Of a stretch of 6,089 bases of DNA, positions 1 through 2,242 are shown one piece after another. The position numbers and the translations under genes are program-made. The stretch's first letter is position 1; each line of letters opens with the position of its first letter. Below the pieces are notes generated by a model that made no database searches, was not told the DNA's origin, and saw nothing but the letters and a program-made list of their open reading frames with translations. Source of the DNA: Escherichia phage phiK; sequence record NC_001730.1; one strand, written 5' to 3'.

Positions 1-3
1 TTG

Positions 4-31
4 TTGACATTCCCCAATTCCTTATTAGACT
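4..31 (+). promoter_or_regulatory. Candidate sigma70-type promoter upstream of ORF1 (TTGACA N16 TAGACT)
   Basis: Perfect -35 hexamer TTGACA at 4-9, 16-nt spacer, -10-like TAGACT at 26-31 (4/6 to TATAAT). Lies about 30 nt upstream of the AGGAG/ATG of the 64..432 ORF. Motif match only. Confidence 0.25.
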
Positions 32-63
32 CTTGCTTCAACGAAACGAATCAGGAGTCTTTT

Positions 64-432
64 ATGAAGCCCGCTCACTGTCTTACTCATCCCGTACTTG
101 GTTCATGGTTTTTTAAGTGTCCCGTTTATATCCGTTATGAGCACCTTCATCACGGTCGTCTTATCAAGGTTCGCGCTGTTCGTGATTTGTCCCCGCGTCA
201 GCAGCTTATTGCTAACCCTAAAAATTGCTTTGACGTTGTTATTGCTGAGATTGATGTTACTTATGGCTCCATTACTTGGTTTGACTATGAGCATGAGGAG
301 TATGATGAGTTTGAGCCTGATGTTATAAATGGCCTCGTTAACTATATTGATATTCCTCACGTCATTCGTTCTGAGGAAGACCCTACTGTTTCTGTTGATG
401 ATATGGATTGGCTTTATGAAATTGCGGAGTAA
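64..432 (+). CDS. Hypothetical protein (about 122 aa), basic His/Cys-containing N-terminal half and strongly acidic C-terminal half; first ORF of the H-A spacer module
   Basis: ATG 64 preceded by AGGAG at 53-57 (6-nt spacing); stop TAA 430-432. Third codon positions are about 55-60% T by hand count, the same bias as canonical microvirus genes. No similarity to proteins A-H that I can recognise. Confidence 0.5.
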   Translation: MKPAHCLTHPVLGSWFFKCPVYIRYEHLHHGRLIKVRAVRDLSPRQQLIANPKNCFDVVIAEIDVTYGSITWFDYEHEEYDEFEPDVINGLVNYIDIPHVIRSEEDPTVSVDDMDWLYEIAE

Positions 433-435
433 ATT

Positions 436-525
436 ATGGAGACTGTTATCGGAAAATTTATTGCTCTGGCTGTTGTTGCTTTTATGCTGTATGGAATTAC
501 CCGCTTAATTTTGAGGTTCCCGTGA
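436..525 (+). CDS. Hypothetical 29-aa hydrophobic peptide (METVIGKFIALAVVAFMLYGITRLILRFP), predicted single transmembrane helix
   Basis: ATG 436 lies 3 nt after the ORF1 stop, with GGAG at 426-429 (6-nt spacing); stop TGA 523-525. Hydrophobic core FIALAVVAFMLYGI flanked by K7 and R23/R27. Same frame as ORF1. Too short for codon statistics to be decisive. Confidence 0.35.
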   Translation: METVIGKFIALAVVAFMLYGITRLILRFP

Positions 526-734
526 AGTATTTTAGTTTGGTTGATGAACATTATGCTTATTGCCCTGATACGAGGATTTTGCACATTACTCGCAGTCGTG
601 TTTCTGACCCTCGCTACGAGCGTTGCTTTCTTACTGATGAGGAGCATTTTGCGCTATTGGATTGGTTGAAAAACCGTCCAACTTGCGTTAATTCTTGGCA
701 ATCTTCTGAAATACCCTCTATATTGCCCTCATAG
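522..734 (+). CDS. Hypothetical protein (about 70 aa), GTG-initiated, translationally coupled to the upstream peptide ORF
   Basis: GTG 522-524 overlaps the TGA stop of the 29-aa ORF (GTGA); GAGG at 513-516 (5-nt spacing); stop TAG 732-734. No in-frame ATG exists, so the start must be non-ATG if the ORF is real. Third-position T about 50% by hand count. Confidence 0.4.
   Translation: MKYFSLVDEHYAYCPDTRILHITRSRVSDPRYERCFLTDEEHFALLDWLKNRPTCVNSWQSSEIPSILPS
695..724 (+). promoter_or_regulatory. Candidate gene A promoter (PA-like): TTGGCA N18 TATATT
   Basis: -35-like TTGGCA at 695-700 and -10-like TATATT at 719-724, 18-nt spacer. The predicted start site falls inside the downstream hairpin. phiX174 has its PA promoter in the equivalent H-A spacer. 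Motif match only. Confidence 0.3.
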
Positions 735-754
735 TTTCACTACGAGGGCTTTTT
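725..754 (+). terminator. Hairpin plus T5 run, intrinsic-terminator-like, at the end of the spacer module immediately upstream of gene A
   Basis: GCCCTC (725-730) pairs with GAGGGC (744-749); an inner 3-bp helix TAG(732-734)/CTA(740-742) leaves a 5-nt loop; followed by TTTTT 750-754. The 3' arm contains the GAGGG Shine-Dalgarno of gene A. Confidence 0.45.
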
Positions 755-757
755 CGC

Positions 758-2242
758 ATGGCTACCGAAATCTTTTCTGATGTTGTTAAATCTGTTTGGT
801 CGCACGCTACGGCTAAGCACGCCCATCTTCGTATGGCTGTTCAGGTTGATAATCGTAGTCGCCTTCTTTCTGATTTGGTTTACCAGTTGGAAAAACGCCT
901 CTCCGAAGAGACTCATCTGGATGATGAGACTTATGCCCTTTATGAATCTCAGACTGGCCTTTTGGAAGACCATATGGCACTGGTTCGGAAGTGTGCAGCC
1001 CAACTTGATAATAGTAACACTATAGACCACCGCACCCCGTTGGACCCTGAATGTGTTTTTCTTTTTGAGATGATTTGTCCAGGTGTCCGCTATGGTAAGA
1101 CGCTTAATTCGCTTTGGAGTAAGTATGCTGCCCAGTGGCCTGAGAAATTGATTCGTCAGGAGCTCGACATGGTCAAGCCTTTATCCTTTAAGGATGAGGT
1201 TGCCAAGTACATGGAAAAAATGCAGGAAAAAACACGCAAAAACCGCATGACTCAGAAAGTTATCAATGAGATGCGTATTGCTCACCAGAAAGGCTGGTTC
1301 TTTGTGTTTGACACGTTGACCCTTGCCGATGACCGTTTGCAGGCATTCAATGAAAACCCCAATGCTCTTCGTGATTATTTTAGGACTGTTGGTCGAGCTG
1401 TTCTGCGCGCTGAAGGTCGTTCGGTTAAGGATTCCTACAACGACTGCTATCGCTATCTTTGTGTGCCGGAGTTTGGAGGTCAGCACGGTCGTCTTCATTG
1501 GCACGTTGTGCATATGGTGCGGACTCTTCCTTTGGGAAGTCATGACCCTAACTTCGGTCGCCCGGTACGTAATTATCGCCAGATTAACTCGTTCCGTGGC
1601 ATGTGGCCCTATGGCTTTACGCAACCGATAGCCGTTCGTTATCAACATGACGCTTATTCTCGCAAAGGTTGGTTATGGCCTGTTGACAAATCAGGAAAAG
1701 CAATGCAGAGTAAGCCGTATCAGGCGGTCGCATGGTATGTGACCAAGTATGTAGCTAAGCAATCTGACCAGCGTCAGAAGGCTATTACCGAGAGACAAAA
1801 GAAATGCAAGAATCCATTAATGGCAATCTGTCTGAAGAAAGAATTTCGGGTGCGCAGCAGCCGGAAGCTTGGAATGGAGCTCCCGTCAATGGCTCACCTG
1901 AGCAACAAAGTGCTTCTGGAGCTGAGTCGAATCAGCTTCGATTCCAGTCCTCTTTATCAGATAGTGAAAGAGAACGCCAAAAAGCAACTGACCTTGAACA
2001 TCGGCGCGCTGCCTTTGCACGTCATTTTGGATGTGCGCCCGGAAGTGAGAAGCATGTTGAAAGCTATTCGTCGTTTGATGAAAAAGACACCAGAGTTCAA
2101 CTGGCAGAGTTCTATCGCTTCAATGACGGTCACCTTAAAAAATGGGGATATTTCTGATGAAGCACGTCAATACATTATTGATGCAGGAATTACGCCTACT
2201 GATTTGCGAGCTAAAGCGACTCAAACTTTCGGCGGTAAGTGA
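758..2242 (+). CDS. A: Gene A protein, rolling-circle replication initiator (HUH endonuclease), 494 aa
   Basis: ATG 758, stop TGA 2240-2242. Translation aligns with phiX174 A protein from ...DNSNTIDHR... onward: WFFVFDTLTLADDRL, HUH motif GRLHWHVVHM, paired catalytic tyrosines in YVTKYVAK, C-terminal ...ASMT...GGK. N-terminal 80 residues are divergent, as is usual for this family. Confidence 0.95.
   Translation: MATEIFSDVVKSVWSHATAKHAHLRMAVQVDNRSRLLSDLVYQLEKRLSEETHLDDETYALYESQTGLLEDHMALVRKCAAQLDNSNTIDHRTPLDPECVFLFEMICPGVRYGKTLNSLWSKYAAQWPEKLIRQELDMVKPLSFKDEVAKYMEKMQEKTRKNRMTQKVINEMRIAHQKGWFFVFDTLTLADDRLQAFNENPNALRDYFRTVGRAVLRAEGRSVKDSYNDCYRYLCVPEFGGQHGRLHWHVVHMVRTLPLGSHDPNFGRPVRNYRQINSFRGMWPYGFTQPIAVRYQHDAYSRKGWLWPVDKSGKAMQSKPYQAVAWYVTKYVAKQSDQRQKAITERQKKCKNPLMAICLKKEFRVRSSRKLGMELPSMAHLSNKVLLELSRISFDSSPLYQIVKENAKKQLTLNIGALPLHVILDVRPEVRSMLKAIRRLMKKTPEFNWQSSIASMTVTLKNGDISDEARQYIIDAGITPTDLRAKATQTFGGK
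1001..1030 (+). other. Viral (+) strand origin of rolling-circle replication (A-protein recognition and nick site)
   Basis: CAACTTGATAATAGTAACACTATAGACCAC matches the phiX174 origin 30-mer as I recall it (CAACTTGATATTAATAACACTATAGACCAC) at 28/30, both differences in the AT-rich spacer. Lies inside gene A at the homologous codon position (LDNSNTIDH). Expected nick between G1007 and A1008. Confidence 0.85.
1211..2242 (+). CDS. A*: A* protein, in-frame internal restart within gene A (candidate)
   Basis: In-frame ATGs at 1211 and 1220 (MEKMQEKTRKNRM...) align with the phiX174 A* start (MKSRRGFAIQRLMNAMRQAHADGWF versus MQEKTRKNRMTQKVINEMRIAHQKGWF); GGATGAGG-like SD at about 1193-1199. Inferred by homology; which ATG is used is unknown. 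Confidence 0.35.
   Translation: MEKMQEKTRKNRMTQKVINEMRIAHQKGWFFVFDTLTLADDRLQAFNENPNALRDYFRTVGRAVLRAEGRSVKDSYNDCYRYLCVPEFGGQHGRLHWHVVHMVRTLPLGSHDPNFGRPVRNYRQINSFRGMWPYGFTQPIAVRYQHDAYSRKGWLWPVDKSGKAMQSKPYQAVAWYVTKYVAKQSDQRQKAITERQKKCKNPLMAICLKKEFRVRSSRKLGMELPSMAHLSNKVLLELSRISFDSSPLYQIVKENAKKQLTLNIGALPLHVILDVRPEVRSMLKAIRRLMKKTPEFNWQSSIASMTVTLKNGDISDEARQYIIDAGITPTDLRAKATQTFGGK
1804..2157 (+). CDS. B: Gene B protein, internal scaffolding protein, 117 aa, overprinted within gene A in a different frame
   Basis: ATG 1804, stop TGA 2155-2157. C-terminus ...RVQLAEFYRFNDGHLKKWGYF matches phiX174 B ...RIQPAEFYRFHDAEVNTFGYF; acidic, low-complexity N-terminal region typical of B. Confidence 0.9.
   Translation: MQESINGNLSEERISGAQQPEAWNGAPVNGSPEQQSASGAESNQLRFQSSLSDSERERQKATDLEHRRAAFARHFGCAPGSEKHVESYSSFDEKDTRVQLAEFYRFNDGHLKKWGYF

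What the first reader, a model, noticed from the sequence alone, without database searches (positions are those of the whole stretch)
522..734. GTG-initiated third ORF overlapping the upstream stop (GTGA), ending inside the terminator hairpin
The 70-aa ORF has no in-frame ATG; the only plausible start is GTG 522, which overlaps the TGA of the 29-aa ORF and sits 5 nt after GAGG. This is the same stop/start coupling geometry the canonical genes use (B/K TGATG; phiX174 A/C ATGA). Third-position T is about 50%. Its stop (732-734) lies in the loop of the 725-749 hairpin, so translation and hairpin formation could interfere with each other.
Basis: seen in the sequence. Interest (0 to 1): 0.4.

Follow-up and report, generated by a model that had tools for sequence, protein, structure and literature searches.

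The report
Conserved small gene, privately extended tail
The GTG-started ORF is a real, strongly conserved small gene found only in alpha3-like microviruses and left unannotated in most reference genomes. Its run into the terminator hairpin is a one-base peculiarity of this genome, which lost the normal stop codon lying inside the gene A promoter.

Summary
The window is an alpha3-like microvirus (Alphatrevirus; 94% identical to St-1). ORF 522-734 is exactly as described: GTG start, GTGA overlap with the 29-aa ORF's stop, GAGG 5 nt upstream, third-position T 0.50.

Length alone is not significant, since 33% of shuffles give such an ORF. Comparison is decisive. The first 58 codons are open in all 27 distinct relatives. 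dN/dS is 0.08-0.14, like gene A, against at least 1 in the other two frames. The start position alternates GTG/ATG, and 26 of 27 relatives keep a 4-nt stop/start overlap.

In 26 of 27 relatives the protein is 58 aa and stops at a TGA inside TTGACA, the -35 box of a conserved promoter-plus-terminator unit before gene A. This window has TTGGCA (A698G), so TGA becomes TGG and 12 residues are added up to TAG 732-734. That stop lies in the upper stem of the conserved hairpin, not its loop. The tail is unique to this genome, shows no codon signal and is predicted disordered.

The protein (four strands plus a helix, with an arginine-rich hairpin) has no sequence or fold relatives outside alphatreviruses. 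Its function is unknown.

Verdict: a real accessory gene that is probably translationally coupled; the hairpin interference idea is unsupported.

The parts
64..432 (+). ORF1, 122 aa, the first gene of the three-ORF cassette between genes H and A
436..525 (+). ORF2, a 29-aa hydrophobic (single transmembrane-like) peptide whose TGA stop (523-525) overlaps the ORF3 start
   Evidence: It is conserved as METV[IV]GK[FL]IAL...LYG in all relatives. Two different C-terminal junction types both keep the 4-nt overlap. dN/dS is ambiguous for so short a hydrophobic ORF (0.38-0.41).
513..516 (+). Shine-Dalgarno-like GAGG, 5 nt before GTG 522
   Evidence: Relatives with GTG have GGAGG at the same place; relatives with ATG have AGGA 7 nt upstream. 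GenBank M25640 (alpha3) annotates a ribosome binding site at the equivalent position.
522..695 (+). ORF3 conserved core: GTG start plus 58 codons, the canonical alphatrevirus 58-aa protein
   Evidence: Open in all 27 distinct relatives. Variable sites by codon position are 12/7/30 (chi-square p = 1.3e-4). dN/dS is 0.079 with 14 genomes and 0.137 with 26 unique sequences, against 1.0-1.9 in the other frames and 0.077 for the 5' end of gene A. 33 of 58 residues are invariant. The AF2 model has four strands and a helix.
695..724 (+). Promoter-like element for gene A (pA-like): -35 TTGGCA at 695-700 (TTGACA in all relatives), an 18-nt spacer, and -10 TATATT at 719-724
   Evidence: scores it 10 of 12. 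In one search both hexamers are invariant or nearly so across 18 sequences while the spacer varies. This is analogous to phiX174, where pA overlaps the terminator T_H.
696..698 (+). TGG (Trp59) where relatives have the TGA stop; G698 is the private A-to-G change, at position 4 of the -35 hexamer
   Evidence: 26 of 27 relatives have TCTTGACA used as the stop. The closest segment, NC28, differs from window 693-760 only at this base and at one loop base.
696..734 (+). Private 12-codon extension (WQSSEIPSILPS) plus TAG stop 732-734
   Evidence: No codon-position pattern, with 5/5/6 variable sites. T3 is 0.25. pLDDT is below 50 for residues 55-69. No other genome found has it.
725..754 (+). Conserved hairpin (GCCCTC-A-TAGT / TTC / ACTA-C-GAGGGC) followed by TTTTT: a terminator-like element (T_H-like). 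Its 3' arm carries GAGGG, 9 nt before the gene A ATG
   Evidence: Fold. In one search, 90% of cells are paired across 18 sequences against 36-52% for slid controls, with two pairs changed on both sides. NC35 lacks the 5' arm because of a 29-nt deletion.
758..2242 (+). Gene A (replication initiator), the downstream neighbour
   Evidence: Annotated as gpA at the same position in all relatives.

Best explanation
What it is. ORF3 is a genuine protein-coding gene and the last of three small genes: a 122-aa protein, a 29-aa membrane-like peptide and a 58-aa protein. These fill the roughly 757-nt H-A interval in alpha3-like microviruses, whereas phiX174 has only 64 nt there.

How it is probably made (inferred).
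- It is transcribed on mRNAs that come through gene H and end at the hairpin plus U-tract at 725-754. A conserved TTGACA just after H may add transcripts of its own.
- It is translated from GTG 522 with help from the GAGG, and from ribosomes that terminate ORF2 at the overlapping TGA and restart.

The product. The canonical protein is a 58-aa domain of four beta strands and a C-terminal amphipathic helix. A beta-hairpin carries five invariant arginines (R18, R24, R26, R31, R34).

Function (my best guess, low certainty). It is a dispensable accessory protein, possibly nucleic-acid-binding. It probably acts with its two cassette partners on the host or on competing phages, not in core replication or assembly.

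The extension. The normal stop is a TGA that doubles as part of the -35 box (TTGACA) of the gene A promoter. In this genome one A-to-G change at 698 weakens that -35 to TTGGCA and turns TGA into TGG. A non-conserved, disordered 12-residue tail is added and the stop moves to TAG 732-734, in the upper stem of the hairpin. I read the tail as a neutral or slightly deleterious by-product, or a sequencing error, not a regulatory device.

What is shown: conservation, purifying selection, the start position, the conserved overlap, the private stop loss, hairpin and promoter conservation, and the absence of homologs. What is inferred: the transcript structure, actual coupling and the protein's function.

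The confidence of 0.8 applies to 'real conserved gene with a private, non-functional extension'. The functional guess alone would rate about 0.3.
For: Coding and selection:
- The ORF is open in every relative.
- dN/dS is 0.079 and 0.137 in the ORF3 frame, against 1.0-1.9 in the other two frames. It equals the 5' end of gene A at 0.077. Variable sites by codon position are 12/7/30.
- Third-position T is 0.55 in the core, like genes F, G and H.

Start and coupling:
- GTG and ATG alternate at the same codon. GGAGG or AGGA lies upstream. The 4-nt overlap is kept in 26 of 27 relatives across two unrelated junction sequences.
- Independent gene callers predict the H / 122 aa / 29-30 aa / 58 aa / A layout on metagenome contigs.
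- Lilleven annotates all three ORFs, and M25640 annotates the ribosome binding sites.

Stop and extension:
- The stop TGA sits inside an invariant TCTTGACA, and only the window has TTGGCA.
- No microvirus in IMG/VR carries the TGG variant.
- The tail is disordered and shows no codon signal.

Context:
- The hairpin is conserved with compensatory changes.
- In phiX174, pA overlaps T_H in a 64-nt H-A region.
- The family is restricted to alphatreviruses: one 50%-identity cluster among 1.8 billion representatives, none in 185,579 prokaryotic species genomes, and only alphatreviruses among 50,697 phage records.
Against: - There is no expression evidence of any kind (protein, ribosome footprint or mutant phenotype).
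- ORF2's own coding status is not settled by dN/dS (0.38-0.41, against 0.15-0.28 in its +1 frame), and coupling presupposes that ORF2 is translated.
- All relatives are within about 80-90% nucleotide identity, so the independent evolutionary depth is modest.
- The extension could still matter in this particular phage.
Confidence: 0.8

Rival explanations
1. The extension is functional. By reading into the terminator hairpin, ribosomes on ORF3 keep the hairpin from forming, as in the pyrBI leader. They also expose the GAGGG in its 3' arm. Both effects would raise read-through transcription and translation of gene A, compensating for the weakened -35 (TTGGCA) in this genome.
For: - TAG 732-734 lies in the upper stem of the hairpin, so a ribosome terminating there would cover the whole 5' arm.
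- The same base change that removes the stop also weakens the -35 box.
- GAGGG at 744-748 lies 9 nt before the gene A ATG, inside the 3' arm.
- In relatives the stop is 27 nt upstream of the hairpin, too far to interfere.
Against: - It is unique to one genome out of 28.
- The extension shows no sign of coding constraint and is predicted disordered.
- Neither termination nor read-through was measured.
- The change may be a sequencing error or a laboratory mutation.
Confidence: 0.1
2. Position 698 is a sequencing error or a laboratory-acquired mutation. The phage really encodes the ordinary 58-aa protein ending at TGA inside TTGACA.
For: - All 27 relatives have A at this position, within an otherwise invariant TCTTGACA.
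- The old alpha3 record X60322 carries frameshifts in ORF1 that the resequenced DQ085810 lacks. Errors in this region of early records are therefore documented.
Against: - A transition in a -35 box is a perfectly ordinary natural or laboratory variant.
- The window cannot be checked against reads.
- Other private differences nearby (Y55C, I56V, GAGG instead of GGAGG) show that this lineage is simply diverged.
Confidence: 0.25
3. The conservation of 522-695 reflects a cis-acting DNA or RNA element (for example part of the microvirus 'reduction sequence', or a replication signal), or a gene in another frame (the hydrophobic 42-aa ORF 541-669, or the minus-strand ORF 414-647). On this view there is no ORF3 protein.
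For: - In phiX174 the H-A region is implicated in the reduction effect and in second-strand synthesis.
- The 541-669 frame is open in all relatives.
Against: - Substitutions show a three-base periodicity centred on ORF3's third positions, with pS 0.31-0.34, as high as in gene A.
- The alternative frames have dN/dS of 1.0-1.9.
- There is no Rfam match.
- The alternative frame is open because T-rich third positions become second positions, giving Leu, Phe, Val and Ile and few stops.
- Microvirus genes are all read from one strand (established knowledge).
Confidence: 0.04
4. In relatives the leaky UGA-C stop is naturally read through as Trp, giving a minor 70-aa form. The window has simply fixed that form.
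For: - The stop context in all relatives is TGA-C, which I recall as the weakest termination context in E. coli.
- The frame stays open for at least the next 11 codons in the relatives whose sequence I read by eye. Most stop at the same TAG, some run further, and this was not tallied across all 27.
- TGG encodes the residue that read-through would insert.
Against: - Eleven stop-free codons are expected by chance about 59% of the time.
- The downstream sequence is constrained by the -10 box and the hairpin, not by coding (5/5/6 variable sites).
- In L028-type genomes a 1-nt insertion shifts the frame.
Confidence: 0.05

Closest known systems
Escherichia phage Lilleven hypothetical protein QBZ71504.1 (UniProt A0A4D6DYU6), and the unannotated equivalents in alpha3, St-1, WA13, ID21, NC28 and others
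   Same: Orthologous. Identity is 88-95% over 58 aa, in the same position between the 29-aa ORF and gene A, with the same GTG/GTGA start.
   Different: Those proteins are 58 aa and stop at the TGA inside TTGACA. The window's copy has TGG there and 12 extra residues.
The phiX174 H-A intergenic region, with the overlapping pA promoter and T_H terminator
   Same: A sigma-70-type promoter is directly followed by, and overlaps, a hairpin plus U-tract just upstream of gene A. The terminator ends the late transcripts.
   Different: The phiX174 region is 64 nt and holds no genes. Here about 700 nt and three ORFs lie between H and this unit, and the last ORF's stop codon is built into the -35 box.
Stop/start-overlapping, translationally coupled gene pairs (B/K TGATG in microviruses; ATGA and GTGA overlaps in bacterial operons such as trpE/trpD)
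   Same: There is a 4-nt overlap of stop and start with a Shine-Dalgarno sequence inside the upstream ORF. The window's own B/K junction is TGATG at 2155-2159. The overlap is conserved across relatives.
   Different: Coupling has not been demonstrated here. The upstream partner is a 29-aa peptide whose own translation is unproven.
Leader-peptide attenuators in which a ribosome reading into the terminator hairpin blocks termination (E. coli pyrBI leader; recalled from established knowledge)
   Same: In this window only, an ORF ends inside a terminator-like hairpin that precedes an essential gene.
   Different: The arrangement is not conserved, being present in 1 of 28 genomes. The ORF is a conserved 58-aa protein gene, not a leader. 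No sensing logic is evident.

Membership tests
Alphatrevirus 58-aa H-A cassette protein (Lilleven QBZ71504-like ORFan family) | Significant sequence similarity over the whole 58-aa core | tested here: met
   E-values of 1e-23 to 1e-31 and 79-95% identity. tblastn gives 88-93% identity to all alphatrevirus genomes.
Alphatrevirus 58-aa H-A cassette protein (Lilleven QBZ71504-like ORFan family) | Synteny: H, then the 122-aa ORF, the 29-30-aa ORF, this ORF, and gene A | tested here: met
Alphatrevirus 58-aa H-A cassette protein (Lilleven QBZ71504-like ORFan family) | Length of 58 aa, with the TGA stop embedded in the -35 TTGACA | tested here: not met
   The window has TGG at 696-698 and a 70-aa product. 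26 of 27 relatives have the TGA. This is a variant of the family, not a non-member.
Protein-coding gene (as opposed to a chance ORF) | Purifying selection in this frame and not in the others | tested here: met
   dN/dS is 0.08-0.14 against 1.0-1.9. Variable sites by codon position are 12/7/30.
Protein-coding gene (as opposed to a chance ORF) | The product is detected or a mutant phenotype exists | not testable with these tools
   No proteomic, ribosome-profiling or genetic data were found (literature searches).
Translationally coupled overlapping gene pair | Stop of the upstream ORF overlaps or abuts the start of the downstream ORF, and this is conserved | tested here: met
   GTGA in the window. 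GTGA or ATGA in 26 of 27 relatives, across two different junction sequences. ID32 has a 1-nt gap.
Translationally coupled overlapping gene pair | Downstream translation depends on upstream translation | not testable with these tools
   This needs reporter fusions with and without a premature stop in ORF2.
Intrinsic (rho-independent) terminator | A G+C-rich hairpin immediately followed by a U-tract | tested here: met
   A 6 + 4 bp stem at 725-749 and TTTTT at 750-754. The simple scanner missed it because of the internal mismatch.
Intrinsic (rho-independent) terminator | The structure is conserved, with compensatory changes | tested here: met
   90.4% of cells are paired against 36-52% when the partners are slid. 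Two pairs changed on both sides. The covariation score was reached by 1 of 500 shuffles. The signal is modest because the sequences are close.
Intrinsic (rho-independent) terminator | Termination activity | not testable with these tools
   By analogy only: the phiX174 T_H blocks about 70% of transcription.
Sigma-70 promoter (pA-like) | -35 and -10 hexamers with 16-18 nt spacing, conserved while the spacer varies | tested here: met
   TTGGCA-18-TATATT scores 10 of 12. Relatives have TTGACA. The hexamers are invariant or nearly so and the spacer is variable. No transcription start site has been mapped.
Ribosome-controlled attenuator (pyrBI type) | An ORF reading into the terminator hairpin, conserved among relatives | tested here: not met
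   Present in the window only. Relatives stop 27 nt before the hairpin.

The most novel reading that the evidence does not exclude
The three-ORF H-A cassette (122-aa protein, 29-aa membrane peptide, 58-aa arginine-rich protein) is a functional module of a kind not yet described. It may serve superinfection exclusion, host takeover or anti-defence, and it is carried by one whole genus of the smallest model phages. If so, alphatreviruses have 14 genes, not 11. In this genome there may be a further twist: the A698G change couples ORF3 translation to read-through of the terminator before gene A.
Probability: 0.3. Interest if true: 0.6.

Novelty: new member of a known kind. Interest (0 to 1): 0.33.

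Why it matters
Bullavirinae are textbook minimal genomes, and phiX174's 11-gene annotation has been argued experimentally to be complete (PMC6883844). The alpha3 genus carries about 700 extra bases between H and A that most GenBank and RefSeq records leave blank: only 1 of the 12 annotated relatives marks this ORF, namely Lilleven. Showing that the last ORF there is under selection as strong as gene A's means these reference genomes lack at least one real gene, and probably three.

It also gives a clean, tiny system for asking what accessory genes do in a 6-kb phage. The built-in overlap of a stop codon with a -35 box is a neat example of dual coding constraint. It explains how one base change alters a protein's C-terminus and a promoter at the same time. 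For this particular finding the practical message is more modest: the gene is ordinary and real, and its end in the hairpin is an idiosyncrasy.

Tried and rejected
- Distant homologs. A profile search of 1.8 billion representatives found only the family's own cluster, plus three multi-stretch noise hits at E of about 4e-4. There was no relative in 185,579 prokaryotic species genomes.
- ORF3 as a paralogue of ORF1. hhalign probability was 6%, and a Smith-Waterman score of 30 was reached by 16% of shuffles. Rejected.
- ORF1 structure as a clue to the cassette's function. The model is confident (pLDDT 87.7) but has no fold match.
- The alternative-frame ORF 541-669 and the minus-strand ORF 414-647. 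Rejected by dN/dS of at least 1 and by strand logic.
- An RNA family in 1-900. None found.
- A structured start region. The fold of 480-560 is no more stable than shuffles, z +0.49.
- Other genomes with the TGG variant. The 35 IMG/VR pattern hits were all chance matches in unrelated contigs.
- Literature. The Rokyta 2006 paper was not held, and I did not try to retrieve Kodaira 1992. No held paper discusses these ORFs.
- ORF length as evidence. Not significant.

Full report
**Identity of the window.** The 6089-nt window is a complete alpha3-like microvirus genome (Bullavirinae, Alphatrevirus), written so that base 1 follows the stop of gene H. Gene A is at 758-2242. Over the whole genome the closest records are St-1 (94.0%) and Lilleven (93.4%). 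No identical record is in the phage collection. Bases 1-757 are the 'H-A intergenic region', which is 64 nt in phiX174. Here the region holds three tandem + strand ORFs:
- ORF1, 64-432, 122 aa.
- ORF2, 436-525, 29 aa, hydrophobic.
- ORF3, 522-734, 70 aa, the ORF of the finding.

**The observation.**
- GTG 522 forms GTGA with ORF2's TGA.
- GAGG 513-516 lies 5 nt upstream.
- There is no internal Met.
- Third-position T is 0.50.
- The stop TAG is at 732-734, within the hairpin 725-749, which is followed by TTTTT.

The only correction concerns the stop. TAG pairs as part of the upper stem (732-735 with 739-742), and the loop is 736-738. An ORF of this length is not remarkable on its own: 33% of shuffles of bases 1-757 contain a + strand ORF of at least 70 aa.

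**Is it a gene?** I collected the same region from 14 GenBank alphatreviruses and from IMG/VR, JGI, ENA and Logan contigs. This gave 27 distinct relatives.
- The first 58 codons are open in every one.
- Across the 14 GenBank genomes, variable sites fall 12/7/30 on codon positions 1/2/3 (chi-square p = 1.3e-4).
- Pooled Nei-Gojobori dN/dS is 0.079. That is indistinguishable from the 5' end of gene A (0.077). The other two frames give 1.0 and 1.9.
- With 26 unique sequences the values are 0.137 against 1.1 and 1.9, and 33 of 58 residues are invariant.
- Synonymous divergence (pS 0.31-0.34) is as high as in gene A. The conservation therefore acts on the protein, not on a nucleotide element.
- Third-position T in the core (0.55) matches genes F, G and H.

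The hydrophobic alternative-frame ORF 541-669 is open in all relatives, but only because T-rich third positions become second positions. It shows no constraint.

**Start and coupling.**
- The homologous start codon is GTG in 16 relatives and ATG in 11.
- Residues just after it (K2, F4, S5, V7, D8) are invariant.
- Upstream there are two unrelated junction types. One is ...RRFP* with cGGAGGttyccGTGA. The other is ...R[TI]L[KR]* with AGGA and ATGA.
- Both types keep a 4-nt overlap with ORF2's stop. This holds in 26 of 27 relatives, and ID32 has TGA-a-ATG.
- GenBank M25640 (alpha3) already marks ribosome binding sites before all three ORFs.
- Lilleven annotates all three as hypothetical proteins.
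- Metagenome gene callers predict the same layout.

Coupling itself is untested. ORF2's coding status is only suggestive (dN/dS 0.38-0.41, typical of a short transmembrane peptide but ambiguous).

**The end of the ORF.** This is where the interpretation changes.
- In 26 of 27 relatives the protein is 58 aa and stops at a TGA inside an invariant TCTTGACA. L033 stops two codons earlier.
- That TTGACA is the -35 hexamer of a promoter-like unit, TTGACA-18 nt-TATATT. Its hexamers are conserved while the spacer varies.
- The unit runs straight into a conserved hairpin plus U-tract. Across 18 sequences 90% of cells are paired, against 36-52% for slid controls, and two pairs have changes on both sides.
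- Gene A's ATG follows at 758. This mirrors phiX174, where pA overlaps the T_H terminator.
- The window alone has TTGGCA. G698 converts TGA to TGG and lets the frame run 12 more codons (WQSSEIPSILPS) to TAG 732-734.
- The nearest sequence for this segment, NC28, differs from window 693-760 only at this base and at one loop base.
- The tail shows no codon-position pattern (5/5/6 variable sites) and has T3 of 0.25. It is predicted disordered, with pLDDT below 50.
- No other genome carries the variant.

'Ending inside the terminator hairpin' is therefore a private consequence of one transition, or a record error. Early records of this region do contain errors: alpha3 X60322 has ORF1 frameshifts that the resequenced DQ085810 lacks.

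**What the protein is.** AlphaFold2 on ten homologs gives four antiparallel strands (residues 2-6, 9-14, 19-24, 31-36) and a helix (39-50). pLDDT is 74-90 in the core. Strands 3-4 carry five invariant arginines, and the helix is acidic and amphipathic.
- No family matches it in Pfam, PHROGs, NCBIfam or PDB sequences.
- BFVD returns only the Lilleven orthologue.
- A full HMM scan of 1.8 billion representatives finds only its own cluster.
- There is no copy in 185,579 prokaryotic species genomes, nor in any non-alphatrevirus among 50,697 phage records.
- ORF1 also folds confidently (pLDDT 87.7) without a known fold, and it is not detectably related to ORF3.

phiX174- and G4-like phages complete the life cycle without this cassette. 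I therefore infer an accessory role, such as host or competitor interaction or regulation. The arginine-rich hairpin is a weak pointer to nucleic-acid binding. This step is inference only.

**How it most likely works.**
- The cassette lies upstream of the only strong terminator-like element before gene A. It should therefore be transcribed as the tail of late mRNAs that pass through H (inferred from phiX174).
- A conserved TTGACA at 4-9 and a hairpin at 27-59 that sequesters ORF1's AGGAG may modulate this.
- ORF3 is then translated from GTG 522 by ribosomes recruited at GAGG and/or handed over from ORF2.
- A pA transcript would start near 731, inside the hairpin's 5' arm, and so would escape the terminator (inference).
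- In relatives a ribosome stopping at 696-698 is too far from 725 to disturb the hairpin. In this window a ribosome reaching 732-734 would cover it. That could raise read-through and expose GAGGG 744-748 for gene A. This pyrBI-like reading is possible, but it rests on one genome. I give it about 0.1.

**Novelty and verdict.** The gene is real, conserved and almost certainly expressed. It is unannotated in 11 of the 12 annotated relatives examined, and only Lilleven marks it. It exists in databases as a 'hypothetical protein' and belongs to ordinary categories: a small phage accessory ORFan in an overlapping, coupled gene pair. The feature that made it look special, the stop in the hairpin, is not conserved. 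Interest is modest (0.33). It would rise if the three-gene cassette proved to have a defined function.

Noticed in passing
window 1-63: Right after the stop of gene H there is an invariant TTGTTGACA (TTGACA at 4-9). It is followed by a conserved 9-bp hairpin at 27-59 (-16 kcal/mol, z -2.4) whose 3' arm contains ORF1's AGGAG Shine-Dalgarno sequence, then UUUU and ATG 64. This could be a weak terminator after H, a Shine-Dalgarno-sequestering hairpin, and/or a dedicated promoter whose transcripts start inside the hairpin and so free the Shine-Dalgarno sequence.
   Followed up: partly
[not shown]
   Followed up: partly
window 436-525: ORF2 is a conserved 29-30-aa single-helix hydrophobic peptide (METVIGKFIALAVVA.MLYGI...). 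Substitutions fall on codon positions 1 and 3 but almost never on position 2 (13/2/10). This fits a transmembrane peptide but leaves dN/dS ambiguous.
   Followed up: partly
L078:285-400 (ENA ERZ13405072, 761-nt contig, coverage about 2): A natural 26-nt deletion removes the ORF2/ORF3 junction and fuses ORF2's transmembrane segment in frame to ORF3 (78-aa product, P0005). It may be a low-coverage artefact or a viable fusion variant.
   Followed up: partly
L013 (NC35) 694-732: NC35 has a 29-nt deletion that removes the -10 TATATT and the 5' arm of the hairpin before gene A. It keeps the TGA/TTGACA and the U-tract. The promoter/terminator unit is therefore not indispensable in that isolate.
   Followed up: no
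window 744-760: The only Shine-Dalgarno-like sequence for gene A (GAGGG at 744-748, 9 nt before ATG 758) is the 3' arm of the terminator hairpin. On read-through transcripts, initiation of gene A translation would therefore be masked by the hairpin.
   Followed up: no
window 1-800 versus the whole window: The genome is mosaic. Overall it is closest to St-1 (94.0%) and Lilleven (93.4%). The H-A cassette is only 83.7% identical to St-1, and it is closest to ID21 (89.4%). The promoter/hairpin segment is nearly identical to NC28. This suggests recombination or faster evolution of the cassette.
   Followed up: partly
L011 (alpha3 X60322), L007 (St-1 GQ149088), L008 (alpha3 DQ085810): ORF1 is split by frameshifts in the original alpha3 record and in St-1, but it is intact in the resequenced alpha3. 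These are likely sequencing errors in the older records, or a genuine disruption in St-1.
   Followed up: no
window 138-509 equivalent in L002, L003 and L004: In WA13, WA45 and MG945254 a 123-aa hydrophobic alternative-frame ORF overlaps ORF1 and ORF2, and MG945254 annotates it as 'similar to hypothetical protein'. It is broken in other genomes and has dN/dS above 1, so it is a by-product of T-rich third positions.
   Followed up: yes
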